A stretch of 64,000 bases of DNA, taken from Candidatus Woesebacteria bacterium (GTDB taxonomy: Bacteria > Patescibacteriota > Microgenomatia > UBA8517). The stretch is from contig OY970314.1 of the NCBI GenBank assembly GCA_963716475.1, positions 74,479-138,478 on the forward strand, read 5' to 3'. Below are positions 15,395-58,399 of the stretch, one piece after another. A model generated the notes under the pieces. That model was given only the letters and a program-made list of their open reading frames with translations. It was not told where the DNA came from and ran no database searches. Every line of letters starts with the position of its first letter. Position 1 is the stretch's first letter. Both the position numbers and the translations under genes were made by a program.

Positions 15395-18300
15395 ATGCCC
15401 ACAAAAGAAAAAATCTCCGCGGTAAAAAAAGTTTTGGAAGGAATTTCTGTCTCTTCTGTTGCATCTGAGGCCGGGGTTGCCAGAAAAACAATATATTCGT
15501 GGCTAAATATTTATAAAGCCGCTGCCAAAAGAAACAAAAAAACCTGTCTCTTGCCCAAATATGTGGCGGGAAGGGCTCACCCGAGGGAATATACGCACAC
15601 TTTGGAGCAGAAGACAGTAAGACTAATAAAGAAGGACCCGACACTTAGCGTTTCCAAAATGGCTGAAAGATTAAACGCAGGACATCATGCGGTTTACAAT
15701 CTTTTAAAGGCCTTAAAATTGAACACAGAAGATTCCAGGCTTGCATACTCCCGGATTTACTCATATCCCGGTATTTTTGACCCCCAAATTAAGGAATCGG
15801 TTGCAAGGAAAATTGTGAATTCGGAAGGAAAAGTCACGGATATTTCCAGGGAGCTACGGGTTTCCAGAAAGACTATATATAAATGGTTAAAAGAATACAA
15901 AGAGAAGGGAACAGTAAGAAATAACTATTTGAAAGGTTTTGAACACCCCAGATCACTTGGCCCGGAGGCGGAAGCGTCAGTGCTCTCGCAAGTCGTAAAG
16001 GCGCCGGAACTTTCAATTCATGCCTTGGCCACCGGTTTAAACTTTTCCAATCATGCGGTTTTTAATATTCTAAAAAGAAATTTCCTGACTCAAAGAAATG
16101 CCAGGATTATCTATTCTCAGGCTCAGGCTATCCGGGTTTCCGAAAAACCGGAAGCTATCGGTTTTATCGACAGGATAAAGAGTGTTTTTGAAACCTTTAC
16201 TCCGAATCTGGCCCCGGCTCCGCCTCCGGGGGGAAAATCCAAGTTTAGCCCTCTTCTTAAAATCTCCCTGGCTTCGATAATCGTTTTACCGCTTTTCACT
16301 CTTGCCCTGGTCTATTGGGTGAATCTATTAAGGTCCGGTGCAGCAGGGAACGTCGTCGGGCTTATCTTTGCCACAATATCCCTGATTATGGGTACTTTCT
16401 TCTTTTTATATTCACTCAAATATTATTTTACGGTCGCTTTGGTTCTTTCCCGCACCCAGCAGGAAGGGTCAAAAAGCCGTACTTCTATCGGTCTTGAACC
16501 CAATCTCGATCACGTAATTCTCACAAAGAAGCCATACATATCAGTTCATATACCTTTTTATAATGAGAAGAATGTAGTAGAGCGTGCAATTGAGGCTTCA
16601 ACCAATTTCGATTACCCGGAGTATGAAGTGATTCTTTGTGATGATTCAACCGATGAAACAACAACCATTATCAGGGATTATCAAAAGAAATATCTTTCAA
16701 AAGGGGAGAGCTTAAAAATAACTACCAATAGTCAAGACGGCTGGGAGCTGTCCCATGTGGATGTCAGACCGGGAGTAACCCTTAAACATCTTCACAGGAT
16801 CTCAAGAGAAGGTTACAAGGGGGGAGCACTCAGGCTAGCTCTTACTCAGACTGATCCCAGGGCTGAGTTTGTCTCTGTCTTTGATGCCGATTTTGTTCCA
16901 TATCCTGATTCTCTAAACCTTTTCCTCAAGTACTTTAAAGCTGAGAATAACATGAGTGAGGATTATACAGTAAGTAAGGTTGCTGCGGTTCAAGGTTACC
17001 AGTGGCATGTACTTAATAAATCCGAAAACTGGATAACCAGGGGTGTCAGAAGTGAATATGCAGGTAGCTACGTTATCGAAAGAGCGGGAACTGAAATCTA
17101 TGGGGGACTAAAACAAATCTCGGGGTCAGTATATATGATTAGACGTAAGCCCCTAGAAGAAGTAGGCTGGGCCACATCAATCACTGAGGACTTTGAACTT
17201 ACTCTCAAACTATATAATGCCGGCTACAAGGTGGTCTATACACCTTATATACAAGCTCCTGCAGAATGTGTATCAACCCTAAGACGCTTAGTGAGGCAAC
17301 GTATGCGTTGGGCCGAGGGTCATTCTTTCAATGTCAAAAAGATGTTTGCAAAGCTTATGTTCTCTCCGAAACTTTCTTCTGCCGAGAAGTTTGAAACGGT
17401 TTACCTTGCCCCTTACTACCTTCAGGCATTCTTTTTTGTAGTCGGAACTCTTTCCTGGTTTATCAGTGAGACTCTCCTGCCTGCCCGTCTGCCTTTCTGG
17501 ACAGAACTTTGGGGATGGAGTCTGGTCTTAACCAACATGGTAGCCCTTCCCCTTATGAACACCGTCGGAATGTTCCTGGAAGAAAGTGAACAGAAGGACT
17601 ATACAGGAATACTATCATTCGTCGCTCTTTCATACCTTGTGGTCCCGTTTCAGGCCTACGCGGCTGTCAAGGGCTTTCTGGAGACCTCAGAAGGGCCTTG
17701 GTTTAGAACTCCCAAGACCGGTAGAATCACAGACGTCTTTGCCAGGGGTAAATTCTACAGGCTTATCAGACAGATCCTTCCCAGAAGAGCCACCTCATTC
17801 CAAAGTACTTATTCATACAACTACATTACCTTAACGACAGCAAATAATAGATTTAGCAATTTTAAAATAAAAAGGTCGGGAAATAAATATATTTCAAAAG
17901 CATTACTTACGGGATTAACGATTATTATTTTACTTTTGAATCAACTTAGCTTCTTTGCCCCGGGAGTACTTGCGGCAAGTCCTAACCCTACTATTGAACA
18001 ACAAATAAATTTTATGGATAAATTATACTCTACAACCAGCACGAGTGCCGCACCGGGCGATAATTCTTTAGGAATGTTTACTTGGAATGACTCAAAATAT
18101 AATAACGCAACTGTTAATATGGACTATGATGCTGGGAAAAGCGGAAACTTGTCTTATGGCCTAACTTCTGTGGGACTTTCTTTGGTTAATGGAACAACAT
18201 ACACACCGGCAATAAGGTATCAATGTCTTGCAGTGAGTGGAATAGCAACCGAATACGCTATTCCAGGGTTATATACGTCAGGTGGAGTTTTAGTTCAATT

Positions 18301-19282
18301 CTCAGAAGTTTCAATTTCTCTCGGCGAGGTTCCGGGTGGGAAATGTCCTACTTCAGCGAACAGAACACCTGCATATATTGCTGCGGCACGCCTAAGAATT
18401 GTACAGACAAATGCTACCGGAATTACAAATACCAGAAACATGATTGAACTGGGAGATGGTGAAACCATTTCAACAGGTACAACAGCAACTCAGCTAACTT
18501 ACCCCAAATATTGGCTTTATACATCGGGAAATTATGACGGGACTGTTACTACGACTTTTGAAGCGACTGTTTGGAGGGCCGGTGGCAGTTCATACACCGC
18601 CTACGTATGTCTGTATTCTACAGCAGGCAGTGAGATCGGGTGTGTGAGTACCACAAGTACATCCCCGGCTTACCCGACCGCAGTAAGCGTAACCCTGTCA
18701 AACGGAACCGAATATGAAGTAAGAGTCAAAGCCAGCGCAGCCGCAAAAACTGTATATATTGCAAACGCTAAAGTTATAGTTGATCAAGCAGCGGCAGGGG
18801 GAATTACCAAATTGGAAACAGTGCAACATTATAATAACACTCTGGCAACGGAATCAACATCTTCCTATGTTTCTAAGCAATTTTTAACCGAGTTTGTTTT
18901 GGATAACTGGTATGGCGGAACGTTTGCTGCCTATTTTGAGTCGGATATAAAGACTAATAACAGTTCAAATGCCTATTATGCTCGTTTGTACGATATTTAT
19001 AATGCTACCCCTATGGGAGAGATTACAGGTAATGATACTTCCTATGTTAGAAAAACCAGTTCGGATATATGGAGTTCTCTTGCTGCGGGTGGCAATACAA
19101 TGATAGACGTTCAACTGAAAAATAATTCGACCAGCACCACCTCATCATCAAATTCTTGGTTAATCATTAAAGTAACAAATTTACAAGTGCCCGAGAAGCT
19201 TATTTTTGCCCTGCCGTTGATATCCTTAATCCCGATTATAATTAAAAAAAGGAAGGAGATTCTATTAAATAGAAATGGTTGA
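15395..19282 (+). CDS. giant multi-domain surface protein 1: IS630-like HTH repeats + processive GT2 (cellulose-synthase-like) + Ser/Thr-rich ectodomain + VPE-type exosortase sorting tail
   Basis: 1295 aa. Two HTH pairs (…ARKTIYSWLNIYK…, …SRKTIYKWLKEYKEKG…). GT2 motifs VHIPFYNEKNVVERAIE, ILCDDSTDETT, FDADFVP and QRMRWAEGH (QxxRW), plus gating-loop-like WFRTPKTGRITD. Multiple TM helices. C-terminal tail VPEKLIFALPLISLIPIIIKKRKE. Confidence 0.85.
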   Translation: MPTKEKISAVKKVLEGISVSSVASEAGVARKTIYSWLNIYKAAAKRNKKTCLLPKYVAGRAHPREYTHTLEQKTVRLIKKDPTLSVSKMAERLNAGHHAVYNLLKALKLNTEDSRLAYSRIYSYPGIFDPQIKESVARKIVNSEGKVTDISRELRVSRKTIYKWLKEYKEKGTVRNNYLKGFEHPRSLGPEAEASVLSQVVKAPELSIHALATGLNFSNHAVFNILKRNFLTQRNARIIYSQAQAIRVSEKPEAIGFIDRIKSVFETFTPNLAPAPPPGGKSKFSPLLKISLASIIVLPLFTLALVYWVNLLRSGAAGNVVGLIFATISLIMGTFFFLYSLKYYFTVALVLSRTQQEGSKSRTSIGLEPNLDHVILTKKPYISVHIPFYNEKNVVERAIEASTNFDYPEYEVILCDDSTDETTTIIRDYQKKYLSKGESLKITTNSQDGWELSHVDVRPGVTLKHLHRISREGYKGGALRLALTQTDPRAEFVSVFDADFVPYPDSLNLFLKYFKAENNMSEDYTVSKVAAVQGYQWHVLNKSENWITRGVRSEYAGSYVIERAGTEIYGGLKQISGSVYMIRRKPLEEVGWATSITEDFELTLKLYNAGYKVVYTPYIQAPAECVSTLRRLVRQRMRWAEGHSFNVKKMFAKLMFSPKLSSAEKFETVYLAPYYLQAFFFVVGTLSWFISETLLPARLPFWTELWGWSLVLTNMVALPLMNTVGMFLEESEQKDYTGILSFVALSYLVVPFQAYAAVKGFLETSEGPWFRTPKTGRITDVFARGKFYRLIRQILPRRATSFQSTYSYNYITLTTANNRFSNFKIKRSGNKYISKALLTGLTIIILLLNQLSFFAPGVLAASPNPTIEQQINFMDKLYSTTSTSAAPGDNSLGMFTWNDSKYNNATVNMDYDAGKSGNLSYGLTSVGLSLVNGTTYTPAIRYQCLAVSGIATEYAIPGLYTSGGVLVQFSEVSISLGEVPGGKCPTSANRTPAYIAAARLRIVQTNATGITNTRNMIELGDGETISTGTTATQLTYPKYWLYTSGNYDGTVTTTFEATVWRAGGSSYTAYVCLYSTAGSEIGCVSTTSTSPAYPTAVSVTLSNGTEYEVRVKASAAAKTVYIANAKVIVDQAAAGGITKLETVQHYNNTLATESTSSYVSKQFLTEFVLDNWYGGTFAAYFESDIKTNNSSNAYYARLYDIYNATPMGEITGNDTSYVRKTSSDIWSSLAAGGNTMIDVQLKNNSTSTTSSSNSWLIIKVTNLQVPEKLIFALPLISLIPIIIKKRKEILLNRNG

Positions 19283-19838
19283 AAAAAGGAAAATTATAAA
19301 TATTTTGCTTATAGCCAGCCTAATTTTGGCTTTACTGCCTTTTTATGTGAGCTTTCAGGATTTACTTACAAATATAGTTATGAAGGTAAATTTGTATAAA
19401 GCTTTACAAAACACAATTGTGCCATATGAAATGAAAGTGGTAGGCGGAATTATAAACCTGTTACGTTTTCCGATTAGCGCAGGCAGTAGTTATTTTTCAT
19501 GGAATATAGCCAATGGTAAAAAAGAAGCAGTCTATTTGGCCTGGAACTGTATTGGTTGGCAGACTATGATACTGTTTTTGGTGACATTAGTTACAGGTTT
19601 TTCAAAAAGACACCTCTTAAGTTCAAAAATTGAAGCTATTTTAATAGGAGCGCTAGGGACATATATAATAAACATTGTAAGGATTACTGTTGTTATTTTG
19701 ATCTATTTCTGGTTTGGCCGGGGGTTTGGAATAATATTCCACGATTACTTCTCATCTCTAATTACAATATTCTGGTTAATAGGGTATTGGCTGTTTGTTT
19801 ATAAACATACCCTAATAGAAAAATCCGTCGAAGAGTAG
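19275..19838 (+). CDS. mini exosortase/archaeosortase-like polytopic membrane protein (cassette 1)
   Basis: 187 aa, about 5 TM. Conserved WNCIGWQ (Cys), NIVRITV (Arg) and IFHDYF (His) shared with the two paralogues downstream of the other giant genes. Its ATG overlaps the giant gene's end by 8 nt. Confidence 0.7.
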   Translation: MVEKRKIINILLIASLILALLPFYVSFQDLLTNIVMKVNLYKALQNTIVPYEMKVVGGIINLLRFPISAGSSYFSWNIANGKKEAVYLAWNCIGWQTMILFLVTLVTGFSKRHLLSSKIEAILIGALGTYIINIVRITVVILIYFWFGRGFGIIFHDYFSSLITIFWLIGYWLFVYKHTLIEKSVEE

Positions 19839-20437: not shown

Positions 20438-20473
20438 TTGACAGGTGTTAGGATGGTTGGTAACAATGAATAT
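20438..20473 (+). promoter_or_regulatory. sigma-70-like promoter upstream of giant gene 2
   Basis: TTGACA (20438) -N17- TAACAAT, then ATG 20474. The ORF track's TTG start at 20438 is this -35 box. Confidence 0.4.
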
Positions 20474-23400
20474 ATGCCCTTTTCCGAAGCTAAAAGAGAA
20501 AAGATCGTTTTATCCGTACTAAAGGATAATATTGCGGTTTCGGAAGTCTCCAGAAACTACTCTGTTGCCCGAAAAACTATTTACTCTTGGATAAAGAGGT
20601 ATAAAAAGGGAAGTCTTGCTCCACTATATACAAAGGGCAGGAAACACCCGGCGGCCGTATACCCGAAAGCCTATTCTTATATAAGTAGATGGGCTGTAGG
20701 GCACCCCAAGTGGGGATGCCGCACTTTGAGTAAAAGATTAAATGAAAAAGGAATCAGCTTGAGCTACGTTCAGGTTAACAGATTGTTGAACACAATCGGA
20801 GCGGAGACTTATGACAGAAGGTTGAATTATGCCAGAAACTTTGCCGGTCCGGGGAGAACCAGGGAGGATGTCAGGCTTGAAATTGTCAAAAAGGCCGTTA
20901 CCGGGAAAATTTCCATTACAACTCTTTCCGAAAACTACAAAGTTGCCCGTAAGACCATATATAAATGGATAGCGAAATACCGGGCCATTGGTAACATTAA
21001 AGATTCGTACGTCGTTGGTGAGGCTCATCCCAAGGCAATCTACCCGAAAATTACGCAGCAAGTACTCGACTTGGTCGTTACAAACCCCGGTTATTCGGTA
21101 CGCACTCTGGCTAAATCATTTCCGGCATCCTCTTGGACCATCTGGAGTATTTTAAATAGAAATAATCTGAATACATATAATTTAAGGCTCGAATATTCCA
21201 GGAATATATCTGAGGCTGCCGAAGAGAAAGTCTCGACAACGGGAGTTTCCGAAAGGATAAGATCTGTTTTTGAAAGCTTTACTCCAAATCTGGCTCCGGC
21301 CCCGCCTCCGGGGAAACGTAAAATCTTCAACTTCTTCATTATTTCAGTCTTCCTCTTATCAATATCCTTAGCAATTTTCTATTGGGGATCCGTAATTGTT
21401 CACGCTCCGAATATTGCCGGGTCCATAGGCATGATTTTTGCAGGCGTCTCACTGTCACTCGGAATGTTTTTCTTCCTTTATTCTCTTAAATACTATATTT
21501 CTACAGCGATAGTGCTTTCATATTCACAGAAAGAGGGCTTAGATGCCTCGAGAGTAAGCGCTACCGGCTTAAACTCAGACCTCAGTAACATTCATCTTGA
21601 ACGGCATCCTTATGTCTCGGTTCATCTGGCTCTCTATAACGAGAAGAATGTGGTGGAAAGACTGATGAAAGCAGCTACTTCTTTCGATTACGACAATTAT
21701 GAAGTAATCATCGCGGATGACTCAACTGATGAAACCACCGACAAAATCAGGGAGTTTCTGAAAACATTCCTTCCTAAAGGTGAATCGCTTCGGCAAACCA
21801 AAGGGGACGGGTGGGCAATGACAGAAGTTGACATAAGGAGCGGGGTTGTCTTTAAACATGTCCATAGAACCACAAGGATGGGTTATAAAGGGGGAGCGCT
21901 GAAGCTTGCCCTTTCTCTTACCGACCCGAAAGCTGAATTTGTTTCTGTCTTTGATGCCGATTTTGTGCCTTACCCAGATTCCCTGATGCTATTTCTTAAA
22001 TACTTCAAACTACAGAATAATGGATCAGAAGACTACAAAACAAGTAATACTGCATCAGTTCAGGGCTATCAGTGGCACGTACTTAATAAATCAGAAAACT
22101 GGATTACTAGGGGAGTCAGAAGTGAGTATGCAGGTAGCTACGTAATAGAAAGAGCCGGAACCGAAATCTACAAAGGCCTAAAGCAAATCTCGGGATCAGT
22201 TTACATGATCAGGCGCGATGTTTTGGAAGGAATAGGTTGGGGTACTTCTATCACTGAGGACTTTGAGCTTACCCTGAAACTCTACGAAAAAGGCTACAAA
22301 GTGGTTTATACGCCGTATATTCAGGCTCCGGCTGAATGCGTATCGACCCTAAGAAGACTTGTCAGACAACGTATGCGTTGGGCGGAAGGACATTCTTTCA
22401 ATGTCAAAAAGATGTTCGCAAAGCTTATGTTCTCTCCAAAACTTTCTTCCGCCGAGAAGTTTGAAACGGTTTATCTTGCCCCTTACTATCTACAGGCATT
22501 ATTCTTCCTCATCGGAACTCTCTCCTGGTTCATTTCGGAAACCATTTTACCCGCCCGCCTTCCTTTCTGGACAGAGCTTTGGGGATGGAGTTTGGTTCTG
22601 ACCAATATGATTTCACTGCCGCTTCTAAACACAGTCGGACTTTTCTTAGAGGAATCGGACAGAAAGGATTACTCGGGTATTCCATCTTTTATAGCTCTTT
22701 CATATATAGTTGTTCCGTTTCAGGCCTATGCGGCTGTAAAAGGCTTTCTGGAGAAGGAGGAAGGACCATGGTTTAGAACTCCGAAAACCGGCCGCATTAC
22801 GGATGTTTTCAAAAGAGGTAAGTTCTACAAATTTATTTCCGGGATCTTGCCGGGGAAGGCTGCCGGTTCTGCCACGAGTTATGATCTAAGTCCTTATCTT
22901 GCCCTGACCTCAGCCAATAATAGATTCAGCTCGTTCTCCATTCAAACAAGAAAAGGCAGAAGGTGGGTGGGAAAACTAATGCTAACCTCAATGCTTATTA
23001 TTTCCAATCTTCTTCTTTCTTTTTCTCCTTATATTGAATCAAGGGACGGCAACAGCCAACCTCCTCCGGGAACAGGTATTCTTATGGATGGCAGTACAAA
23101 AGGATCGGGAGGCAAGGTCAATTTAACTCCTGAGCAGCAGCAGTCTTTGGACAAATCGATTAAAGCGAATAACCAAAAAACAAGCTTTAAACTGGTTAGC
23201 GATGTCTCGGCAGCAGAAATATCCGGAGGCAGTGAGGTGAACACCTCCTTTGATGTTAAAAAGAAAGACCTTGAACTTAGCGGGGGAAATACCACCTTTA
23301 CAACTGATGAAAATCCCCAATTTACCTTAAAGCAGAACGACGGTTTTTGGGAATTTATCAAGAATATTTTCATTAAAGAAAAACCCTTGAAAGATCAGGT

Positions 23401-26400
23401 TGTTGTAACAGTTTTGGACTTAAAAGGTAAGGAGGTGGGAAGCCCGCAGGTGGTAGAAGGTGGAATTGATGATTTAAGTATAAATCTTGACAAAACAACC
23501 CTTACTCCGGGCGGATATACTCTTGAGATCAAAAGTGGGAGTAGCCCCGTTATCACCCAGGATTTCAGTTGGGGAGTGCTGGCAATAAATACCAATAAGT
23601 CGGTATATAGTCCGGGTGAAGACGCCTCCATTTCAATGGGGGTTCTTAATGAAGTTGGAGAAACGCTTTGTAGCGCGGGACTAACGCTTGATATTACAGA
23701 CACGGCAGGCACAGTTACCGCTTTAACCACAAAGGAGGGCACCATTAAAGTCAGCGATGAATGCAGCCTCAAGGGCTTCAGCCTGAAACCCGACTATGAA
23801 GCAGCCTACAAAACAACGGTTGCAGGAAAGTACAGCATGGTTCTGACTGCAGAGACTCTTAACGGCAAATATGTTATCAAGGGTTGGTTTGAGGCAAAAG
23901 ACTCGGTCGATTTTGACGTCGAAACGATTACGGCCTCCAGAATTAATCCGGTTTATGAATACCCGGTTATTTTTATAGTTAAGGCGGGTAAAGACTACAA
24001 TGGCATTGTTGAAGAAAAAGTCCCGGCCGGCTTTGAAATCAGTAAACTCAACGACTTAAAGTTGAATAACTATCTGGATTCTAAAGGGGAAAGTACGGCA
24101 AGCGGTAAACTTCAGGAGACACTGGTTAATGACGGTTCACAGGAGGCGGGACAAAAAACACTCCGTTGGATTGTTGACTGGAAAAAAGACCAGACTTATG
24201 TTCTTGCATACGCTTTTAAAGCGCCGATGGTCAGTCCAGAATTTTATCTACTCGGGCCGCTCTGGATCGGGGCATATGAGGGAGCGGGAGGTTGGCAGAT
24301 AGCCGCGGATAAGGTCCCTGCTGGGATTATTGTCGGTTGGCCGTCAACTGTAGCCTCAATTCCTAATCACTGGAGCAGGGTTTCAGGCGCGGCTCTTGAC
24401 GGGTACTTTTTAAGATCAGTAACAGCAACTGATCCGTCGGGTACTCCCGGAGGAAATGCCAGCCATACTCATTCACCGGCGAGTCATACTCATTCCGTTC
24501 CTGTCCATACACATACAGTTCCCGCTTTTGCCCAATCAACCAATACTTCGGCAACGACGGGTAACTCTACGGGTTCCGCCCGTGATACTCATACTCATGC
24601 GGCATTTAGTTCCGGAAATTCCAACGTAACCGTCAATAATGCCCAGACGGTTCCTTTTGCGGGACTTTCCAATGACCCCGATAATTCAACCGTCATCTGG
24701 ATCCAGTCGGACGGAGACCCGTCTACCGAAATTCCGGTAGGGTCTTATGTTTACTTTGACTCAAACACCATGCCGGGAGCCAACTGGGGTAGAGTAAAGG
24801 GAAATTACTTCCTTAAAGGTGCGGCAACGGGTTTAGGGGGAGGAACCGATACGGTAACAGGTTCCGCAACTCATACCCACGCCGCCTCAGCCGACCATAC
24901 CCATACTGAGGCTGCCCATACCCATTCAGGGAGCTCGGCAGGAGGTTCACTTGCTGTTTCCAGTACGGGAACTGGGTCTTACTCTCCGAGTGGCCATACA
25001 CATACCGTTACCTCAAGCTCCGTTGCGGCAACGGAGGGAGGAGCATCGGTAACCCCGACAGTCGGAGTGGCCGCTCCCTCGGGAGAACCTCCTTGGTACA
25101 AACTTAATATCATTAGTAAGTCTACAGGTGCTAATGAAACTCCTTTAAATGTCATTGCCATGTGGACCGGAACTCTGGCAACAATTCCCGACGGTTGGGT
25201 AATTTGTGACGGAACAAATGGAACTCCAAACCTGGGTACAAACTTTATCAAAGGCGCAAATGCCGACGGGGAGCTCAATACCACCGGGGGTTCCCTTACC
25301 CACACTCATGGGGCAGGCAATACCCATACACATACAATAAATGCTCACGTACACACCTGGACGGTTGGAGCTGCCTCCGGAACCGGTGTTGGATTAACGG
25401 GAAATGGAAGATCAGCCGTGGTCAGTACTCATACACATACCCTCAGCGCTGCGCAAACATCAAGTGGCGGAGGTTCAACAGGAACGGCAACTATTACGGC
25501 CGACTCGCAATCTAATCTTCCTCTCTACAAAGAGGTTGCCTACATTATGTATATCGGTAAGACTGTTGCCGGTAAAGCCTATTCGGATGAAGCAACCAGT
25601 ATCTGGGCCGGTTGTGACAACTCGACTGCCAGAATAAGTTTGGTAGTTAACGGCGGTACAGCCTCCACAACCTCATGCAGCAGTTCAGACGGATCTTTCA
25701 GTTTCAAGAATGTTACTCACGCGACAGATAATCCAATATCGGTATTTTTTAATACCGCAGGTAGCAATGCCGACAAAGGTGTGGCAGTTACTATCGCCAA
25801 CGATGCCACTACTCCGATTACCCTTAATCCCAGAAAAAATATTGTCTGGATGAGGAGTGAGAAAGCAACACCGACCATTACCAACTCCAATCTGGCTCAT
25901 TGTTATGCCTCAACCCCCGCAAGCTGTGCCAATGTCCCGTATTCTGCTTCGGGAGCCAATATAACCCTAACTACTGGAGTTGAGCTTCATGTAGAAAGCA
26001 GTATGACATATGATCCCGGGGGAACCACTGCAACCACCGGTACCGGAAGTCTGCATGTGGATGACAATGCTGTCGCATACTTGGATACTACTGGCAATAC
26101 CATTGCTAATAATATTTTAGTGGATGCCGGGGCGACCATTCATATTGATGCCAGTACGGCAGTAAACGGGGGAAATATCACGGTTACAGGTAACGGAATA
26201 GTATCTTCAGCCGCCGGAACCGTAACTATGGGGGCAAGCGGAACCATTGGGGGAGGATCAACAGGATCTACCTTCCAGTTAACAGATCTTGTTGTTTCTT
26301 CGGGGACTACAACCCTGGGGACGGATGCCGACAATATACTGGACTTTACCGGGGATATCAACGTTTCGGCCGGAGCCGTGCTTGCCATGAACAATAAAAC

Positions 26401-29400
26401 CGCTAATGTAGACGGAGGAAATCTGACGACAACTTCTACCGGGTCAGTTACCTGTTCAGGTTGTACGACTGGCGGTTTAACAATTTCAGGAGTCGGAACA
26501 ACAAATGGTATAGGCGGGGGAGGTGGAGCTATAACTTTATACAACCTGACACTTGACGGATCAACCAATACCACAACAGTCGGGTCAAGCGCCATTACGG
26601 TAACCAATGATGTAACAATAGGTACGGGAAGAACCCTGTCAGGAGCCGCATCAGGAACAATCTATGTGGGACACAACTGGGCCAACAGCGGCACTTACAA
26701 TGCCAACTCGGGAACTATTAATTTAAATGCAGCAGCCGATACTGTTCAACAGATAACAGGTGCGACCACATTTTATAATTTATATGTAGCTACTGGAGAT
26801 AGGATTATTAAATTTGGTTCATCAACCGCTTTTACCATTGATACCGGAGGAACCTTTACGGCAACAGGGGATTCCTGTTCGGCACTTGTGGTAATCCGTT
26901 CAACCACTTCCGGGAGTGCCGCAACAATTACCAAGACAGGTTCCGTTTCCTTCTCATATATAGATATACAGGATATCAACTTTTCGGCTTCTGCCTCGGC
27001 TTCTAATTCAGTCGATTCCGGAAACAACAGTAGTATCGTCATTGCAGCCAATAGCTGTCTTGGTGCATCAACCAATAACCAAGCCGCAACAGGTCATTCA
27101 TTCCAGAGAAAAGTATTCTATGATTCCGGGAATAATGTCTACTGGGGTTTCTACCATGACGGAACCCAGATCGAAGTCAGGTATTCATCAAATAGTGGCT
27201 CTACTTGGAATGTAGAAAATGACCATCTGGTACAAAATACCAACGACTTTTCCGTCTGGGACCAGACAATCTCCTCCTACTACGTCTTTTTGGCAGCCAA
27301 AAGCAGCGACAGTATTGTCTTAAGAAGAGGAACAATAACTTCAGGTGCAATCTCATGGGACAGTGAAACAACTCCGGTTACAGCCTTTACGGGGACGGGT
27401 TCAGGCGATTCTTATTCCTATCCCTATATCTCTGCCGATTCATCCGGTAATCTCTGGGTGGGAGCCAGATATTTTAACGGATCAAGTTATGTCTACAAAG
27501 CAGTCAAAAGTAACAATGCAGGAAGTGCTACCTGGACAAACGCTGCTTTTACCTGGGGAGATCCTTCTCAAATCTCTAATGATCAAGCCGACCCTAACGT
27601 TTTTGGCAATGTAGTATCCATAGGCTCGCTGAATATGTACGCAACATTCGTAGTAGGTACAACTATCAAAGGCTGTAAATACACCAATTCTCCTCCTGCC
27701 TGGAAGAATTCAGCAGGGACAGATTCATGCGTAACAACCGAGGGTAGTGGCGGCGGGGAGTCAACATATTTTGATAGCTTAAGTACCGGGTTAGTTGCGT
27801 ACTGGAAAATGAATGAAACTTCCTGGACAGGAGCGAGTAACGAGGTGGTTGATTCATCAGGCAACGGTAACAATGGAACTCGTGTAGGCGATGCAACAAC
27901 AACGGCTGCAGGGTTTTATAGGTCAGGAACGTTCGATGGGACGGGAGATAGGGTTTCTGTTCCTGACAAGACAGACTGGACATTATCGTCCGGAATAGAT
28001 CTGACATATTCAACCTGGATTAATTATACCGTATTGCCGGGGAGCACCAATTGGCCTGGTATTGTTGAAGGAGGTGATGATATGTATGGTTTCCAAATGA
28101 ATGGGCCCACTACCGGGAATATAGTTGTAGATTGGTGGGACGGTACTGTTGACCATACATCATCTTCGCAGGCTGTATCTGTCGGTACCTGGTATCATGT
28201 CGTGATAACTTTAGATTTTGGTGTAACTAATGGTTCCCATTGGTATTTTAACGGTAGAGACCTTGGAACTTTTACCGCACAAGATCGCAGTGTAAATCCT
28301 GATGCACTATATATCGGAGGTAGTGTTACCAATCCCGTTTCAAACAACGCTGTTAATGGAAAGATTGACGATCTGAGAATTTATAACAGGCTACTCTCTG
28401 GTGAAGAGGTTGCCAAACTTTATCAATATGCCCCGGATAGAGTCAATATCGACGATGCCAGTGATTTTAATGCTCCGTCCGGTAGACAAGTTGTTAGAGC
28501 GAAAAACGGGGATTTGTATACTTTTGTCAATGATGCGGGGACATGTGGGGTATGGAAGTCAACTGATGGAGCAAGTTGGTCAGAACAGGATAGTACTCAT
28601 CATAAAACTTGTATGAGTTATTCGGGGGTATCAATAGCGATTGATTCAACTGATAAGTTACATCTTTTATACGCTTCAGGATCCAACACCTTACAATATG
28701 ACACGTTTACTGCCGGGGCTTTTTCTATTCTTAATGAAAATATTTATAATGATGTTGGTGGCAATGGGCTAGGGGGTTTTGATATTGCTGTTGATGCAAA
28801 TAATATTCCCCACGTAGTCTATGTATACATAGACACGTTTACCGATAATCAACTTGGTTACGATAACCGTGTAGGTGGCGCTTGGAATGGTTCAGATGCT
28901 AACCCCGATACTGATAGTGTCGGATTGCTGTCTCCAACAATAGAGATTAATGAAACTGGGTATCCGGAAGTCTCATATATAAAGGCTAGTACTGGGGTTT
29001 TAGTGGCTAAGGCGGGAAACGGAAATGACCCCAATTTATGGGCAGGTTATAGTATAGATACGAGCGTTAATGTTACTGGCGGTCAGGGGGGTGCTTCAAT
29101 TGCAGTAGACACCTTGACCGGTAATACGTGGATAGCGTATGTCGACGGGGATAACGATATTTCTTTGGCAAAATATTCAGGGACGGATTATTCCGGATGG
29201 GAGACAGCCGGTAACTGGGCCACCGTGACCAGTAAAAGCGACGATGGGTACGACCCGTCAATTGCCATTACCGGACCTTCCGATATTTATGTTTTTTATC
29301 AGGATGATGGGGTGGCGGATAACGGAACTAATAAAAGGATCTCTTACGATATATATGATTCGATAGGAGAAGATTGGGCCGGGGAAGTTCCCCTACAAAC

Positions 29401-31612
29401 TCCAAGTTCAGGAGATTTTAAAACTGTTAAAGCCAAGTGGAGTTTTGAATGGAATAATTATGGTGCAAACAGGATTGATTATCTTTTCTCCGACGGAACC
29501 GATGTCTTCTGGAGCTATCTATACCTCCGCCGTCAGCCGACCAATATAGATGACGCCTCAAATATGGGAGCTCTTCCGGGAGAAGGCAGGCAGGTGGTGA
29601 GAACGTCAAGCGGGTATCTTTACTCTTTTATTGCCGGGAAAATGTGGAAATCAACCGATGGTGGAGCGACCTGGGCTCAAAAAGGTGCGAGTAAATCAGG
29701 CATTTTTAACACTCTAGCAGTGGGGTCGGATGATACATTACATGTCACCTTTGGGACGAGTACTACAGGTATTTTTTATGATACTTTTTCTACGTCTTCT
29801 GAAGCTTTTGCGGGATTAAATCAATCGATACATGCTTATACTGCAGGAGAGTCTATTGAAGATAGTGTGTCGATGGCATTGGATTCGAATGATATACCGC
29901 ATGTAGTTTATATTTATAACAATTCAGGCGCCACGGATACTTTTTTGATTTATGACAGCAAAGTCGGGGGTTCATGGCATACTCACTACTTGGTTTTGGA
30001 AGATAACGCGACGGGAGGCACAACCGATATTTTTAGCCCCGAAATAACGATTAATGAATCTGATTATCCTGAGGTTGTTGAATATAATGCCATGACCGGA
30101 ACGGTTCGAGGCAAGGCGGCAAATGCCAATGCTGCGACGGCGTTTGCGACCTATGTTATAGATGACAGTGTTGTAGGAACGCCGACTATCGGTATTGATT
30201 CGTCAGGAAATACCTGGGTGGCCTACGCAGACTCGGGAGATAAAATATCACTTGCAAAATACTCGGGCACTGATTTCACAGGCTGGTATACCTCGGGAAA
30301 CTGGGCTGTGAATACAAGTAAAACTCAAAAAGGATATAAACCTTCGATCGTAGTTGACGGAACTAATATTCGTGTTTTATATCAGGACGACCAAAACGAT
30401 ATTGTTTATGACACGTTTAACGGAACAAGTTGGAGCGGGGAGACTCTTCTGGAGGAACATGCAGCCCTGCAGGATGTTAAAGCCAGAGGGAGCTTTCTGA
30501 ATAATTATGATTCAACCGGGGTAGCACAGTTGAAATATAATACCTATTATTTTAATACTTACGATGGCGAACTTGGTGATCCGAATGGCGTATGGGGTAA
30601 TGATGCAAGCGCCTTTGATGGAAATACCGGTACCTCTGCCACTTCCGGCGTAAATGGGTCAACATCAAGTAATTATTTAATGGGTACAGGAACCAGTGCG
30701 CCGGCAAGCGGAGAAACGATCAGTAGTGTTCAGGTAAGATTTTATGGTGGTCAAGTTGTTGATTCTAATACAACGGTATATGCGACAGTTTCTTCTGGCG
30801 GAACAGAAATTGGAACAGCTACTATTTTTAAACTCAATGATCCCGCCTGGAGTGGTTTTGTTACTCTTTCTGCGCCCGGGGGAAGCTGGGACTGGTCTGA
30901 GGTGCAGGGATTAAATGTAAAATTATATGCCACAGGCATAGTGACTGGCTCTGTAGCGGTAAGGAAAGTGGAGATACAGGTCAAATCGACAAGTACAACT
31001 TCTCAGGCAGAAGTTGATTATGTGTATTCTGATGGCACGGATGTGTTTTACAACCGCCTGCTTTTAGGCGGTACCAGCTCAATTTCGGGAACCCAGGATC
31101 CGATTGACGACTTGATCCCCGCTGATATATCTAAAAATATCTCAACAGTTGCCGACGGGAGCGGGAATGTCCACATACTTTATATCAAGGACTCCGCTAC
31201 GGATTATGTAGCTTACAAGAAGTGGAACGGGACAAGCTGGGATGTAAGCCCGACGAGTATTGAATCAAACGCCAACGCAGCCTATCTGACACTATCCCGT
31301 GCCTCGGATACGGGAGATCTCTATGCCCTTTGGATTGACACATCCGCCAATACAATCAGAAAAAGTATATTTACCTCAAGCTGGTCCGGTCCTACCGCCT
31401 GGCAGAATCCGGGTGTAACAATCACAAACCTTTCCTCTTCGTATTCTGCATCCGCAGTATTTTCTGAGTGGACAATCGGAGCCCTTGCTCCTTTTGAAAT
31501 AAATGCTGGCGTGCTTAAAGTTCCAGAATATCTGCTTTTATTCCTACCCCTTGCACCGCTTTTGCCGTTTTTATCAAGAGTTAAGAAGAAAAGGGGAGCT
31601 CTGATTAGGTAG
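20474..31612 (+). CDS. giant multi-domain surface protein 2: HTH repeats + GT2 + ectodomain (His/Thr repeats, beta-helix-like, LamG-like, tandem BNR-like modules) + VPE-type sorting tail
   Basis: About 3712 aa from MPFSEAKREK, by analogy with the gene 1 N-terminus MPTKEKIS. GT2 motifs VHLALYNEKNVVERLMKA, IIADDSTDETT, FDADFVP and QRMRWAEGH, plus WFRTPKTGRITD. LamG-like block (…DDLRIYNRLLSGEEVAKLYQ). BNR/Asp-box WKSTDGGATW. Tail VPEYLLLFLPLAPLLPFLSRVKKKRG. Confidence 0.85.
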   Translation: MPFSEAKREKIVLSVLKDNIAVSEVSRNYSVARKTIYSWIKRYKKGSLAPLYTKGRKHPAAVYPKAYSYISRWAVGHPKWGCRTLSKRLNEKGISLSYVQVNRLLNTIGAETYDRRLNYARNFAGPGRTREDVRLEIVKKAVTGKISITTLSENYKVARKTIYKWIAKYRAIGNIKDSYVVGEAHPKAIYPKITQQVLDLVVTNPGYSVRTLAKSFPASSWTIWSILNRNNLNTYNLRLEYSRNISEAAEEKVSTTGVSERIRSVFESFTPNLAPAPPPGKRKIFNFFIISVFLLSISLAIFYWGSVIVHAPNIAGSIGMIFAGVSLSLGMFFFLYSLKYYISTAIVLSYSQKEGLDASRVSATGLNSDLSNIHLERHPYVSVHLALYNEKNVVERLMKAATSFDYDNYEVIIADDSTDETTDKIREFLKTFLPKGESLRQTKGDGWAMTEVDIRSGVVFKHVHRTTRMGYKGGALKLALSLTDPKAEFVSVFDADFVPYPDSLMLFLKYFKLQNNGSEDYKTSNTASVQGYQWHVLNKSENWITRGVRSEYAGSYVIERAGTEIYKGLKQISGSVYMIRRDVLEGIGWGTSITEDFELTLKLYEKGYKVVYTPYIQAPAECVSTLRRLVRQRMRWAEGHSFNVKKMFAKLMFSPKLSSAEKFETVYLAPYYLQALFFLIGTLSWFISETILPARLPFWTELWGWSLVLTNMISLPLLNTVGLFLEESDRKDYSGIPSFIALSYIVVPFQAYAAVKGFLEKEEGPWFRTPKTGRITDVFKRGKFYKFISGILPGKAAGSATSYDLSPYLALTSANNRFSSFSIQTRKGRRWVGKLMLTSMLIISNLLLSFSPYIESRDGNSQPPPGTGILMDGSTKGSGGKVNLTPEQQQSLDKSIKANNQKTSFKLVSDVSAAEISGGSEVNTSFDVKKKDLELSGGNTTFTTDENPQFTLKQNDGFWEFIKNIFIKEKPLKDQVVVTVLDLKGKEVGSPQVVEGGIDDLSINLDKTTLTPGGYTLEIKSGSSPVITQDFSWGVLAINTNKSVYSPGEDASISMGVLNEVGETLCSAGLTLDITDTAGTVTALTTKEGTIKVSDECSLKGFSLKPDYEAAYKTTVAGKYSMVLTAETLNGKYVIKGWFEAKDSVDFDVETITASRINPVYEYPVIFIVKAGKDYNGIVEEKVPAGFEISKLNDLKLNNYLDSKGESTASGKLQETLVNDGSQEAGQKTLRWIVDWKKDQTYVLAYAFKAPMVSPEFYLLGPLWIGAYEGAGGWQIAADKVPAGIIVGWPSTVASIPNHWSRVSGAALDGYFLRSVTATDPSGTPGGNASHTHSPASHTHSVPVHTHTVPAFAQSTNTSATTGNSTGSARDTHTHAAFSSGNSNVTVNNAQTVPFAGLSNDPDNSTVIWIQSDGDPSTEIPVGSYVYFDSNTMPGANWGRVKGNYFLKGAATGLGGGTDTVTGSATHTHAASADHTHTEAAHTHSGSSAGGSLAVSSTGTGSYSPSGHTHTVTSSSVAATEGGASVTPTVGVAAPSGEPPWYKLNIISKSTGANETPLNVIAMWTGTLATIPDGWVICDGTNGTPNLGTNFIKGANADGELNTTGGSLTHTHGAGNTHTHTINAHVHTWTVGAASGTGVGLTGNGRSAVVSTHTHTLSAAQTSSGGGSTGTATITADSQSNLPLYKEVAYIMYIGKTVAGKAYSDEATSIWAGCDNSTARISLVVNGGTASTTSCSSSDGSFSFKNVTHATDNPISVFFNTAGSNADKGVAVTIANDATTPITLNPRKNIVWMRSEKATPTITNSNLAHCYASTPASCANVPYSASGANITLTTGVELHVESSMTYDPGGTTATTGTGSLHVDDNAVAYLDTTGNTIANNILVDAGATIHIDASTAVNGGNITVTGNGIVSSAAGTVTMGASGTIGGGSTGSTFQLTDLVVSSGTTTLGTDADNILDFTGDINVSAGAVLAMNNKTANVDGGNLTTTSTGSVTCSGCTTGGLTISGVGTTNGIGGGGGAITLYNLTLDGSTNTTTVGSSAITVTNDVTIGTGRTLSGAASGTIYVGHNWANSGTYNANSGTINLNAAADTVQQITGATTFYNLYVATGDRIIKFGSSTAFTIDTGGTFTATGDSCSALVVIRSTTSGSAATITKTGSVSFSYIDIQDINFSASASASNSVDSGNNSSIVIAANSCLGASTNNQAATGHSFQRKVFYDSGNNVYWGFYHDGTQIEVRYSSNSGSTWNVENDHLVQNTNDFSVWDQTISSYYVFLAAKSSDSIVLRRGTITSGAISWDSETTPVTAFTGTGSGDSYSYPYISADSSGNLWVGARYFNGSSYVYKAVKSNNAGSATWTNAAFTWGDPSQISNDQADPNVFGNVVSIGSLNMYATFVVGTTIKGCKYTNSPPAWKNSAGTDSCVTTEGSGGGESTYFDSLSTGLVAYWKMNETSWTGASNEVVDSSGNGNNGTRVGDATTTAAGFYRSGTFDGTGDRVSVPDKTDWTLSSGIDLTYSTWINYTVLPGSTNWPGIVEGGDDMYGFQMNGPTTGNIVVDWWDGTVDHTSSSQAVSVGTWYHVVITLDFGVTNGSHWYFNGRDLGTFTAQDRSVNPDALYIGGSVTNPVSNNAVNGKIDDLRIYNRLLSGEEVAKLYQYAPDRVNIDDASDFNAPSGRQVVRAKNGDLYTFVNDAGTCGVWKSTDGASWSEQDSTHHKTCMSYSGVSIAIDSTDKLHLLYASGSNTLQYDTFTAGAFSILNENIYNDVGGNGLGGFDIAVDANNIPHVVYVYIDTFTDNQLGYDNRVGGAWNGSDANPDTDSVGLLSPTIEINETGYPEVSYIKASTGVLVAKAGNGNDPNLWAGYSIDTSVNVTGGQGGASIAVDTLTGNTWIAYVDGDNDISLAKYSGTDYSGWETAGNWATVTSKSDDGYDPSIAITGPSDIYVFYQDDGVADNGTNKRISYDIYDSIGEDWAGEVPLQTPSSGDFKTVKAKWSFEWNNYGANRIDYLFSDGTDVFWSYLYLRRQPTNIDDASNMGALPGEGRQVVRTSSGYLYSFIAGKMWKSTDGGATWAQKGASKSGIFNTLAVGSDDTLHVTFGTSTTGIFYDTFSTSSEAFAGLNQSIHAYTAGESIEDSVSMALDSNDIPHVVYIYNNSGATDTFLIYDSKVGGSWHTHYLVLEDNATGGTTDIFSPEITINESDYPEVVEYNAMTGTVRGKAANANAATAFATYVIDDSVVGTPTIGIDSSGNTWVAYADSGDKISLAKYSGTDFTGWYTSGNWAVNTSKTQKGYKPSIVVDGTNIRVLYQDDQNDIVYDTFNGTSWSGETLLEEHAALQDVKARGSFLNNYDSTGVAQLKYNTYYFNTYDGELGDPNGVWGNDASAFDGNTGTSATSGVNGSTSSNYLMGTGTSAPASGETISSVQVRFYGGQVVDSNTTVYATVSSGGTEIGTATIFKLNDPAWSGFVTLSAPGGSWDWSEVQGLNVKLYATGIVTGSVAVRKVEIQVKSTSTTSQAEVDYVYSDGTDVFYNRLLLGGTSSISGTQDPIDDLIPADISKNISTVADGSGNVHILYIKDSATDYVAYKKWNGTSWDVSPTSIESNANAAYLTLSRASDTGDLYALWIDTSANTIRKSIFTSSWSGPTAWQNPGVTITNLSSSYSASAVFSEWTIGALAPFEINAGVLKVPEYLLLFLPLAPLLPFLSRVKKKRGALIR
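28442..30560 (+). repeat. intragenic tandem duplication of an about 370-aa BNR/Asp-box-containing module within giant gene 2
   Basis: Module A starts VNIDDASDFNAPSGRQVVRAKNGDLYTF…; module B starts TNIDDASNMGALPGEGRQVVRTSSGYLYSF…. Shared blocks: NIPHVVYVY/DIPHVVYIY, ISLAKYSGTDYSGW/ISLAKYSGTDFTGW, YVFYQDD/RVLYQDD. A third degenerate copy lies near 31080. Confidence 0.7.
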
Positions 31613-34127: not shown

Positions 34128-34435
34128 ACCAATTTTTGCAATTTGAAATCGGGGAAGAGACGCTTTTTAATCAGGATGTCGCTTTCCTCGCCTATTTTAA
34201 TCGCTTCCAGTAAATTCTTCACCCCAGCCAAATTGATGCCCTTATTTTGCGTTAGGTAGCGTACAAATTGGAGTTTATTGATATCCTCAATGGAGAATAG
34301 TCTTCTTTTGGACTCGGATCGGTAGGGAGTAATGAGCCCGAGACTTTCGTAAAGCATAATTGTCCGTGGATGAACTTTCAAAAGTCTCGCAGCTATGGAT
34401 ATAGGCAGAATTGGACTCTCACTAAGCTCAGTCAT
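34124..34435 (-). CDS. MerR-family (HspR-like) transcriptional regulator
   Basis: 103 aa. MerR HTH (…ISIAARLLKVHPRTIMLYESLGLITPYRSESKRRLFSIEDINKLQFVRYL…). Confidence 0.75.
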   Translation of the reverse strand: MTELSESPILPISIAARLLKVHPRTIMLYESLGLITPYRSESKRRLFSIEDINKLQFVRYLTQNKGINLAGVKNLLEAIKIGEESDILIKKRLFPDFKLQKLV

Positions 34436-42988: not shown

Positions 42989-43117
42989 GACAGGTAGATT
43001 ATCAGAAATAGTATACTAGAAAAAGATTTAGGTACAATGGGACAAAAAAGAATCCATTGTGCGAAAACCCATTGACGTATATTGGGGTGTTTGGGTACAC
43101 TTGGGGCTGAATTAAAA

Positions 43118-47379: not shown

Positions 47380-47384
47380 ATGGT

Positions 47385-57009: not shown

Positions 57010-57026
57010 GGTTTATTTTTAATTAA

Positions 57027-58397: not shown

Positions 58398-58399
58398 TC

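What the first reader, a model, noticed from the sequence alone, without database searches (positions are those of the whole stretch)
19275..19838. Minimal (about 190 aa) exosortase/archaeosortase-like proteins with invariant Cys, Arg, His across three paralogues
The three small membrane proteins (19275-19838, 33555-34127, 41283-41888) share WNC(I/L)GWQ, N(I/L)xR(I/M) and I(F/I)HDY(F/L) blocks plus a C-terminal (F/Y)WWFSYRYILEEK tail. The positions fit a Cys-Arg(-His) transpeptidase-like active site embedded in TM helices, as in exosortases and archaeosortases (invariant Cys and Arg). At about 190 aa they are far shorter than typical EpsH/ArtA (about 280-500 aa), suggesting a stripped-down catalytic core. 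Paralogue 1 is more diverged than 2 and 3, mirroring the divergence of its partner's tail (VPEK vs VPEY/VPEN).
Basis: partly seen in the sequence, partly recalled or inferred. Interest (0 to 1): 0.85.

Follow-up and report, generated by a model that had tools for sequence, protein, structure and literature searches.

The report
Small dedicated exosortases beside giant proteins
Three small membrane proteins in this ultra-small (CPR) bacterium belong to the known exosortase/archaeosortase family of membrane-embedded cysteine peptidases, and each appears to be a private processing enzyme for the giant sugar-polymer-synthase/surface protein encoded just upstream, an arrangement that no curated model or paper I could search describes.

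Summary
Three paralogous ORFs (187, 190 and 201 aa) share WNC(I/L)GWQ, N(I/L)xR(I/M) and HDY blocks.

All three pass the NCBIfam exosortase/archaeosortase signature TIGR04178 (32-38 bits, cutoff 23). In 120 homologues Cys and Arg are invariant and His is kept in 119.

"Minimal" is not new. Curated subfamilies of 155-202 positions already exist (XrtG, XrtH, XrtS, XrtX, ArtH). Homologues in CPR genome assemblies already carry the generic family name.

No named subfamily model is reached. XrtG is the nearest, and it also works with family-2 glycosyltransferases (GT2).

The new part is the system:
- In 44 of 45 readable related loci the gene lies just downstream of a giant protein: two helix-turn-helix (HTH) domains, a processive GT2 synthase and a large ectodomain.
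- That protein ends in [V/I]PE-x, a short proline-rich hydrophobic helix and a Lys/Arg cluster.
- No curated C-terminal sorting-signal (CTERM) model matches this tail.
- Natural fusions join synthase, ectodomain, signal and sortase in one polypeptide.

Most likely each sortase cleaves, and perhaps re-anchors, its own neighbour. Cleavage and the acceptor are inferred, not shown.

Verdict: a new variant of a known kind, of moderate interest.

The parts
19275..19838 (+). Paralogue 1, a small exosortase-family protein (187 aa). Cys92 is at 19548-19550, Arg136 at 19680-19682 and His156 at 19740-19742. Its ATG overlaps the stop of the upstream giant gene by 8 nt.
   Evidence: TIGR04178 38.3 bits against cutoff 23. 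Residues, codons, junction sequence.
33555..34127 (+). Paralogue 2, a small exosortase-family protein (190 aa). Cys95 is at 33837-33839, Arg139 at 33969-33971 and His159 at 34029-34031. It starts 4 nt after the stop of the PMT/TPR gene.
   Evidence: TIGR04178 32.2 bits. AlphaFold2 model with pLDDT 74.7: five helices and one beta-hairpin. Codons.
41283..41888 (+). Paralogue 3, a small exosortase-family protein (201 aa). Cys94 is at 41562-41564, Arg138 at 41694-41696 and His158 at 41754-41756. It starts 9 nt after the stop of giant 3.
   Evidence: TIGR04178 31.6 bits. Codons. Closest relatives (58-69% identity) sit beside tails ending in VPEN or VPEY; three of these six tails are of the 'VVPEFTTVPEN' type.
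15395..19282 (+). Giant 1 (1295 aa), the proposed substrate of paralogue 1. It has two N-terminal HTH domains, a processive GT2 synthase (DAD, TED and QRMRW motifs), an ectodomain and a C-terminal signal.
   Evidence: Pfam and NCBIfam hits. Motifs and hydrophobic segments.
19187..19282 (+). Sorting signal of giant 1: VPEKLIFALPLISLIPIIIKKRKEILLNRNG.
   Evidence: Translation. It has the three-part layout of motif, hydrophobic helix and basic cluster. No curated CTERM model matches it.
20438..31612 (+). Giant 2 (3724 aa), the proposed substrate of paralogue 2. It has HTH domains, a GT2 synthase and a very large ectodomain with a Laminin_G_3 domain and HTH(T/S) His-Thr repeats.
31520..31612 (+). 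Sorting signal of giant 2: VPEYLLLFLPLAPLLPFLSRVKKKRGALIR.
   Evidence: It fits the family consensus derived.
31625..33550 (+). PMT_2/TMEM260-like GT-C glycosyltransferase with C-terminal TPR repeats, lying between giant 2 and paralogue 2. It is probably the protein O-glycosylation component of this cassette.
   Evidence: PF11028 at 4e-26 and PF13231 at 2e-9. In loci L028 and L035 the ORF just upstream of the sortase has a similar C-terminal sequence, and the giant's signal lies further upstream.
35013..41273 (+). Giant 3 (2086 aa), the proposed substrate of paralogue 3. It has HTH domains, a GT2 synthase and an ectodomain.
41196..41273 (+). Sorting signal of giant 3: VPENPLLLFGLYPLFAGFLKKLRRK, preceded by VVPEFTT.
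   Evidence: Near-identical tails lie next to orthologous sortases in L011, L012 and L018.
34124..34435 (-). MerR-family regulator, divergent from giant 3. It recurs in the neighbourhood of these cassettes.
   Evidence: PF13411 at 3.7e-14. MerR genes flank the cassettes in L001, L003, L004 and L005 and in seven of the genome-collection loci.

Best explanation
Each small protein is a dedicated, one-enzyme-one-substrate member of the exosortase/archaeosortase family of membrane-embedded cysteine peptidases. They form an unnamed clade nearest to XrtG, found mostly in Microgenomates-group CPR bacteria.

The proposed substrate is the giant protein encoded just upstream. It carries two cytoplasmic HTH domains, a processive GT2 polysaccharide synthase and a large ectodomain. 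It ends in a three-part signal: [V/I]-P-E-x, a short proline-rich hydrophobic helix and a Lys/Arg cluster.

Proposed steps:
1. The giant inserts into the membrane with its ectodomain outside, held at the far end by the C-terminal helix.
2. The sortase has its N- and C-termini in the cytoplasm, with four membrane spans plus an outward-facing helix and hairpin. This puts Cys (start of helix 3), Arg (helix 4) and His (start of helix 5) at the outer leaflet, where the VPE motif sits.
3. The Cys attacks at or next to the VPE motif. This removes the helix and basic tail and forms an acyl-enzyme.
4. The acyl-enzyme is resolved either by water (release of that end) or by an amine on a lipid or envelope polymer (re-anchoring, as with ArtA).

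Shown here: family membership, residue conservation, conserved adjacency, and natural fusions. Inferred: catalysis, cleavage site, topology and acceptor.
For: Family membership:
- All three proteins and 120/120 homologues exceed the TIGR04178 cutoff.
- Cys and Arg are invariant and His is kept in 119/120. N94, G97, W98, Q99, N136, D160 and Y161 (p2 numbering) are also invariant.
- The Cys-to-Arg spacing of 44 residues is close to the 41 between ArtA Cys173 and Arg214.
- The AlphaFold2 model is helical, with Cys, Arg and His on three consecutive C-terminal helices.

Pairing with the giant:
- The sortase genes overlap or lie within 4-9 nt of the upstream gene.
- 44 of 45 related loci with readable upstream DNA carry the [V/I]PE tail upstream of the sortase, most of them within about 100 nt.
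- 16 of 19 loci with at least 6 kb of upstream DNA show the GT2 domain on the same strand. Contigs looked up from other assemblies show the same cassette.
- The window holds exactly three such tails and exactly three sortases.

Fusions:
- P0195 and P0239 encode GT2, ectodomain, 'IEVPEN' signal, basic linker and sortase in one chain.
- P0164 and P0178 encode sortase, a membrane span, an ectodomain and a 'VPE' signal.
- The order of helices and basic linkers in these fusions requires the sortase to have both ends in the cytoplasm.

Precedent:
- Dedicated systems with adjacent enzyme and target genes are a recognised class (Haft preprint).
- The XrtG system combines a CTERM protein, XrtG and GT2 enzymes (PMC12854382).
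Against: - There is no biochemical evidence for this clade, and none for any bacterial exosortase in the papers I could read.
- No named subfamily cutoff is reached (best XrtG E-value 2.9e-7), so function is transferred across a long distance.
- The substrate is already an integral membrane protein through its synthase domain, and it has no ordinary signal peptide. That is unlike typical exosortase substrates, so the purpose of removing the C-terminal anchor is unclear.
- The structure model has only moderate confidence (pLDDT 74.7). It could not be compared with any exosortase structure.
- The rest of the genome could not be scanned for other VPE-tailed proteins.
Confidence: 0.75

Rival explanations
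1. The small proteins are accessory subunits of the fused GT2 synthase. They would help export or modify the polysaccharide, for example by attaching it to a carrier, and would not cleave the giant's C-terminus. The family resemblance would reflect a shared fold only.
For: They always sit with a processive GT2. NCBIfam already names XrtG-associated and XrtP-associated glycosyltransferases, so a glycan-centred role is conceivable. One homologue is fused to a SAM methyltransferase (P0139).
Against: The peptidase-type Cys, Arg and His are kept almost perfectly. A three-part peptide signal is equally conserved at the end of the partner. Fusions place the signal directly next to the sortase domain.
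Confidence: 0.1
2. They are general, many-substrate exosortases serving numerous VPE-tailed proteins elsewhere in the genome. Their position next to the giants would then be incidental operon organisation.
For: Classic XrtA and ArtA systems are one-to-many. Only 64 kb of a contig of about 983 kb was visible here.
Against: The window has three sortases for three tails. The pairing repeats, sometimes several times per locus, in other genomes. Sortase-substrate fusions exist. The closest relatives of paralogue 3 (58-69% identity) all sit beside tails ending in VPEN or VPEY.
Confidence: 0.08
3. The match is a false positive on hydrophobic sequence, and the ORFs are unrelated small membrane proteins.
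Against: The curated signature cutoff is exceeded by 9-15 bits in all three and in 120/120 homologues. Secondary hits go only to other Xrt/Art subfamily models. Some relatives pass Pfam PF09721.
Confidence: 0.02

Closest known systems
XrtG system of Firmicutes (TIGR03110 XrtG, a Firmicu-CTERM target and TIGR03111 XrtG-associated GT2)
   Same: - Size and layout match. The XrtG model has 187 positions, and paralogue 1 aligns residues 19-182 to positions 23-182.
- 100 of 120 family members hit XrtG, more than any other named subfamily.
- Both occur in bacteria with a single membrane.
- Both combine a small exosortase, a CTERM-tailed protein and GT2 enzymes (PMC12854382).
   Different: - Scores are far below the XrtG cutoff (about 13-16 bits here, best E-value 2.9e-7, cutoff 102.75).
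- The tails match no curated CTERM model, Firmicu-CTERM included.
- The GT2 is a PgaC/CelA-like processive synthase. It scores 24 bits against the 364 needed for TIGR03111.
- Here the GT2 and the target are one giant polypeptide with N-terminal HTH domains. In the XrtG system they are separate genes.
Archaeosortases ArtA (PGF-CTERM) and ArtC
   Same: - Same superfamily signature.
- ArtC is the second most frequent subfamily hit (82/120).
- The Cys-to-Arg spacing resembles ArtA Cys173-Arg214.
- ArtA is the only member with experimental proof of cleavage plus lipid attachment, so it is the mechanistic template.
   Different: - ArtA and ArtC are archaeal, larger (the ArtC model has 274 positions) and serve many substrates.
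- The ArtC cutoff of 100 bits is not approached (31 bits at best in the window).
- ArtA's third critical residue is Arg253, which has no conserved counterpart here. This clade keeps His159 instead.
XrtA/EpsH with PEP-CTERM (the classic exosortase of Gram-negative bacteria)
   Same: - The tail has the same logic, and its motif resembles the common V-P-E-P of PEP-CTERM (recalled from memory, not tested here).
- Both are associated with exopolysaccharide loci.
   Different: - About 190 aa here against the 241-261 positions of the curated EpsH and XrtA models.
- The second Pro of PEP is absent, and the hydrophobic helix is short and rich in proline.
- No PEP-CTERM model hit.
- One enzyme per target rather than one for many.
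- No outer membrane.
Dedicated two-gene sorting systems, such as JDVT-CTERM with its myxosortase MrtJ
   Same: One enzyme per target, encoded by adjacent co-oriented genes. Adjacency is the main evidence in both cases.
   Different: The enzyme family is unrelated (Rce1/CPBP-type peptidase) and the signal is based on Cys.

Membership tests
Exosortase/archaeosortase superfamily (TIGR04178; MEROPS C106) | Match to the curated signature model above its cutoff | tested here: met
   38.3, 32.2 and 31.6 bits against cutoff 23. 120/120 homologues match.
Exosortase/archaeosortase superfamily (TIGR04178; MEROPS C106) | Near-invariant Cys, Arg and His on separate membrane helices | tested here: met
   Cys 120/120, Arg 120/120, His 119/120. 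They lie on predicted helices 97-111, 118-149 and 152-182. The triad is named in the Haft preprint.
Exosortase/archaeosortase superfamily (TIGR04178; MEROPS C106) | Protein with several membrane spans | tested here: met
   Hydropathy gives four strong segments and the AlphaFold2 model is helical. The N-in/C-in topology is inferred from fusion proteins, not measured.
Exosortase/archaeosortase superfamily (TIGR04178; MEROPS C106) | Co-occurrence with a C-terminal three-part sorting signal (motif, hydrophobic helix, basic cluster) | tested here: met
   Three tails for three enzymes in the window. 44 of 45 related loci carry the tail. Fusions.
Exosortase/archaeosortase superfamily (TIGR04178; MEROPS C106) | Cys-dependent cleavage of the signal | not testable with these tools
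   This needs expression, mutagenesis and mass spectrometry.
Exosortase/archaeosortase superfamily (TIGR04178; MEROPS C106) | Fold shared with other family members | not testable with these tools
XrtG (TIGR03110) | Score at or above the curated cutoff of 102.75 bits | tested here: not met
   13.3 and 16.2 bits for paralogues 1 and 3, and no hit for paralogue 2. Best E-value in the family is 2.9e-7.
XrtG (TIGR03110) | Cognate Firmicu-CTERM target and TIGR03111-type GT2 partner | tested here: not met
   The tails hit no NCBIfam model. The GT2 scores 24 bits against a cutoff of 364 for TIGR03111. A GT2 partnership exists, but in a different, fused form.
Archaeosortase C (TIGR03762) | Score at or above 100 bits, and a curated CTERM signal on the partner protein | tested here: not met
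   31.2, 18.8 and 15.4 bits. The tails, including the 'PEF'-containing ones, hit no curated model.
XrtA/EpsH with PEP-CTERM | Pfam PF09721 or TIGR02602 above cutoff, and a PEP-CTERM tail | tested here: not met
   PF09721 gives 13.5 and 10.5 bits against 25.7. No PEP-CTERM hit on the tails.

The most novel reading that the evidence does not exclude
The cassette would be a self-contained machine for building a surface fibre. The giant's own GT2 domain extrudes a polysaccharide. Its private exosortase then joins the freed C-terminus of the ectodomain to that nascent glycan, or to an amine-bearing envelope lipid. The result is a protein-glycan conjugate still tethered to its synthase.

This would give exosortases their first defined acceptor in bacteria. 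It would also explain why exosortases travel with GT2 enzymes (XrtG, XrtP and this clade).
Probability: 0.12. Interest if true: 0.85.

Novelty: new variant of a known kind. Interest (0 to 1): 0.5.

Why it matters
- **Exosortase biochemistry.** Bacterial exosortases are widespread but, in the papers I could read, none had been analysed experimentally. A 190-aa enzyme with a single adjacent substrate, and natural enzyme-substrate fusions, would be a compact system for testing cleavage, acceptor and specificity.
- **CPR biology.** These bacteria are thought to live attached to host cells. Giant surface proteins are the obvious attachment candidates, and how they are displayed is not known. This cassette occurs three times in 27 kb here and recurs across Microgenomates, which suggests a dedicated display route.
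- **Annotation.** The result argues for two new curated models: one for the sortase clade and one for the '[V/I]PE' C-terminal signal.

Tried and rejected
- **AlphaFold database fold search.** The afdb50 library was not available.
- **PDB sequence search with the family profile.** One chance hit at E 0.066.
- **Curated sorting-signal models.** Seven tails were scanned against NCBIfam, which includes the CTERM models, up to E 10. None matched.
- **Named subfamilies for remote relatives.** None reached any Xrt/Art subfamily cutoff.
- **Promoter and terminator scans around the three genes.** Uninformative.
- **Literature.** No paper in the held library mentions exosortase or PEP-CTERM together with CPR, Patescibacteria or Microgenomates in a relevant way. 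Haft 2012 and Abdul Halim 2018 are not held.
- **Rejected: paralogue 1's divergence tracks its partner's VPEK.** The position after PE varies freely, and paralogue 1 has no close orthologue among the 50 loci.
- **Rejected: the helix at residues 41-61 spans the membrane.** The fusion proteins require both ends of the sortase to be cytoplasmic, so the number of spans must be even.
Full report
**1. Observation**

They are true paralogues. Identities are p2-p3 48%, p1-p2 36% and p1-p3 33%, with E-values of 1e-32 to 1e-61. tblastn finds no fourth copy in the window.

All three share WNC(I/L)GWQ, N(I/L)xR(I/M) and HDY(F/L). The '(F/Y)WWFSYRYILEEK' tail belongs only to paralogues 2 and 3.

Each gene is tightly joined to the gene before it:
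- Paralogue 1 overlaps the stop of the upstream giant by 8 nt.
- Paralogue 2 starts 4 nt after a PMT/TPR gene, which itself follows giant 2.
- Paralogue 3 starts 9 nt after giant 3.

**2. Family membership**

All three exceed the curated cutoff of the NCBIfam signature TIGR04178 (exosortase/archaeosortase family): 38.3, 32.2 and 31.6 bits against 23. The match covers residues ~88-177, which contain the Cys, Arg and His. Pfam's EpsH model stays below threshold.

A profile search of the 5.8-billion-protein collection gave at least 372 homologues, nearly all 185-205 aa. They come from Microgenomates-type CPR assemblies (Woesebacteria, Chisholmbacteria and others). NCBI or JGI already name several of them 'exosortase/archaeosortase family protein'.

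In an alignment of 120 homologues:
- Cys95 and Arg139 are invariant, and His159 is present in 119 (one Gln).
- N94, G97, W98, Q99, N136, D160 and Y161 are also invariant.

These are the residues the literature gives as the suspected triad of the family (Haft preprint 10.1101/2023.06.07.544157). In ArtA, Cys173, Arg214 and Arg253 were shown to be critical (PMC9263693). The Cys-to-Arg spacing here is 44 residues, against 41 in ArtA.

An exhaustive HMMER scan of 1.84 billion cluster representatives found only 447 at E <= 1e-3 and 67 at E <= 1e-30. The clade is therefore small and compact.

**3. Is 'minimal' new?**

No. The curated library already holds models for small family members: XrtG (187 positions), XrtH (158), XrtS (155), XrtX (168) and ArtH (202).

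When all 120 homologues were scanned, 120 hit TIGR04178, 100 hit XrtG (best E-value 2.9e-7), 82 hit ArtC, 59 hit CrtC and 22 hit XrtX. None came near a subfamily cutoff. Paralogue 1 aligns to XrtG over almost its full length and in the same register (19-182 to 23-182 of 187).

So this is an unnamed clade whose nearest named relative is XrtG, the small exosortase of single-membrane Firmicutes.

**4. Structure**

AlphaFold2 with the 120-sequence alignment gave pLDDT 74.7 and pTM 0.65. The model has helices at 3-38, 41-61, 97-111, 118-149 and 152-182, and a beta-hairpin at 77-89. Cys95 precedes helix 3, Arg139 lies in helix 4 and His159 is near the start of helix 5.

**5. Genomic context: the informative part**

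Each sortase follows a giant ORF of 1295, 3724 or 2086 aa. All three giants share one architecture:
- Two transposase-type HTH domains with no transposase catalytic domain.
- Two hydrophobic segments.
- A processive GT2 synthase of the PgaC/CelA/NodC type, with DAD, TED and QRMRW motifs, followed by further membrane segments.
- A large Ser/Thr-rich ectodomain.
- A C-terminal tail: VPEK, VPEY or VPEN, then a hydrophobic helix, then a Lys/Arg cluster.

These are the only three such tails in the window.

The cassette recurs elsewhere. Three contigs looked up from other assemblies show it, and one complete Woesebacteria genome has three in a row. Among 50 loci from the species-representative genome collection:
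- 44 of 45 with readable upstream DNA carry the tail upstream of the sortase. Most are within 100 nt; a few have one intervening gene, such as the PMT/TPR gene seen here.
- 16 of 19 with at least 6 kb upstream show the GT2 on the same strand.
- MerR genes often flank the cassette, as at 34124-34435 here.

The consensus from 32 tails is: V or I at -1, then P-E, a variable residue, about 15 hydrophobic residues with Pro at +8, +11 and +14 (roughly LPLAPFLPFLV), then K/R at +18 to +24. No NCBIfam model matches the tails.

**6. Fusion proteins**

Among the representatives are natural fusions:
- P0195 (946 aa) and P0239 (1227 aa) carry GT2 synthase, ectodomain, '...IEVPEN' plus helix, a basic linker and a sortase domain in one chain.
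- P0164 and P0178 (~460 aa) carry the sortase, one membrane span, an ectodomain and a '...VPE(T/R)' tail.

These link enzyme and signal functionally. They also fix the topology. The signal helix runs from outside to inside, and its basic linker is cytoplasmic, so the sortase N-terminus is cytoplasmic. In the second type of fusion the sortase C-terminus must also be cytoplasmic.

The sortase therefore has an even number of membrane spans. The helix at 41-61 and the hairpin face outward, and Cys, Arg and His lie at the outer leaflet. That is where a motif abutting the substrate's helix would sit. This topology is inferred, not measured.

**7. Mechanism and confidence**

Most likely (about 0.75), each protein is a dedicated sorting peptidase for its neighbour. 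It would cleave at or next to VPE through a Cys acyl-enzyme.

Whether water or an amine on a lipid or envelope polymer resolves that intermediate is open. I put it at roughly even odds. ArtA's lipid attachment is the only experimental precedent.

One feature is unusual: the substrate stays anchored by its own synthase domain. Processing would therefore either free one end of the ectodomain or move it to another anchor.

Rivals:
- An accessory subunit of the synthase (0.1).
- A many-substrate sortase (0.08).
- A false-positive match (0.02).

**8. Comparison and novelty**

- The proteins are members of the exosortase/archaeosortase superfamily. The signature, the residues, the membrane character and the co-occurring signal were all tested and met.
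- They are not members of XrtG, ArtC or XrtA/EpsH. The cutoffs and cognate signals were tested and not met.
- The system works most like the XrtG system, which combines a CTERM protein, a small exosortase and GT2 enzymes (PMC12854382).
- It differs in fusing synthase and target into one giant HTH-bearing polypeptide, in its own signal, and in its one-to-one multi-cassette organisation.
- No paper in the searchable library links exosortases or PEP-CTERM with CPR bacteria.

Verdict: a new variant of a known kind. The novelty lies in the system, not in the small size.

Noticed in passing
window 15395-16250, 20438-21330, 35013-35700: Each giant begins with two transposase-type HTH domains (HTH_28, HTH_23, HTH_32; IS481/IS630-like) but has no transposase catalytic domain. 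These are fused to a membrane GT2 synthase. A DNA-binding module tethered to a polysaccharide synthase is odd and could couple transcription to envelope assembly. The same fusion is seen in L001, L004 and L005.
   Followed up: partly
window 24200-25200 (giant 2, residues ~1280-1570): Giant 2 has repeated His-Thr motifs (HTHS, HTHT, THTHT) interspersed with 'IP(D/N)GW...CDG...NL...FIKGA'-like segments. From memory these resemble phage tail-collar and tail-fibre metal-binding repeats. Pfam reported only Laminin_G_3 further downstream.
   Followed up: no
window 31625-33550: A TMEM260/PMT_2-like GT-C O-mannosyltransferase with TPR repeats lies between giant 2 and its sortase. In L028 and L035 the ORF upstream of the sortase has a similar C-terminal sequence. 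This suggests O-glycosylation of the Ser/Thr-rich ectodomain as part of the pathway.
   Followed up: partly
window 34124-34435 (-): A small MerR-family regulator is divergent from giant 3. MerR genes flank the cassettes in many other genomes (L001, L003, L004, L011, L014, L034, L039, L045, L047).
   Followed up: partly
window 41966-42988 (-): A Beta-lactamase2-family protein with an N-terminal membrane anchor converges on sortase 3. In L018 the ORF between a giant's tail and its sortase has a similar C-terminal sequence.
   Followed up: no
window 43082-55557: An envelope-glycan gene set lies downstream: a GT2, an unannotated 446-aa ORF, an epimerase/dehydratase, a GT4, and two ORFs of about 1000 aa. 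One of the two (49791-52790) hits PF10131 (PTPS_related membrane protein).
   Followed up: no
window 55558-60615: A cluster of three B12-binding radical SAM proteins (HpnJ/BchE-like), with SAM methyltransferases at 48922-49794 and 58400-59185. This is unusual for a reduced CPR genome.
   Followed up: no
L051 7461-10573; L008 2057-3095; L001: Some genomes carry two or three sortase paralogues in tandem after a single tailed protein (L051, L008). Others carry several complete cassettes in a row (L001). The one-to-one ratio is therefore not absolute.
   Followed up: partly
P0139 (384 aa, representative library): A family member is fused to a C-terminal SAM-dependent methyltransferase domain. The significance is unknown.
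   Followed up: no
L053 (record labelled Dormiibacterota): The tail next to this sortase homologue reads '...SIVLAESPLPAAGLALLAPLAAAALLGRRRRRQM'. It lacks the PE motif, which suggests a variant signal outside CPR. Many of the related records carry taxon labels such as 'uncultured Gammaproteobacteria', which look like placeholder names.
   Followed up: no
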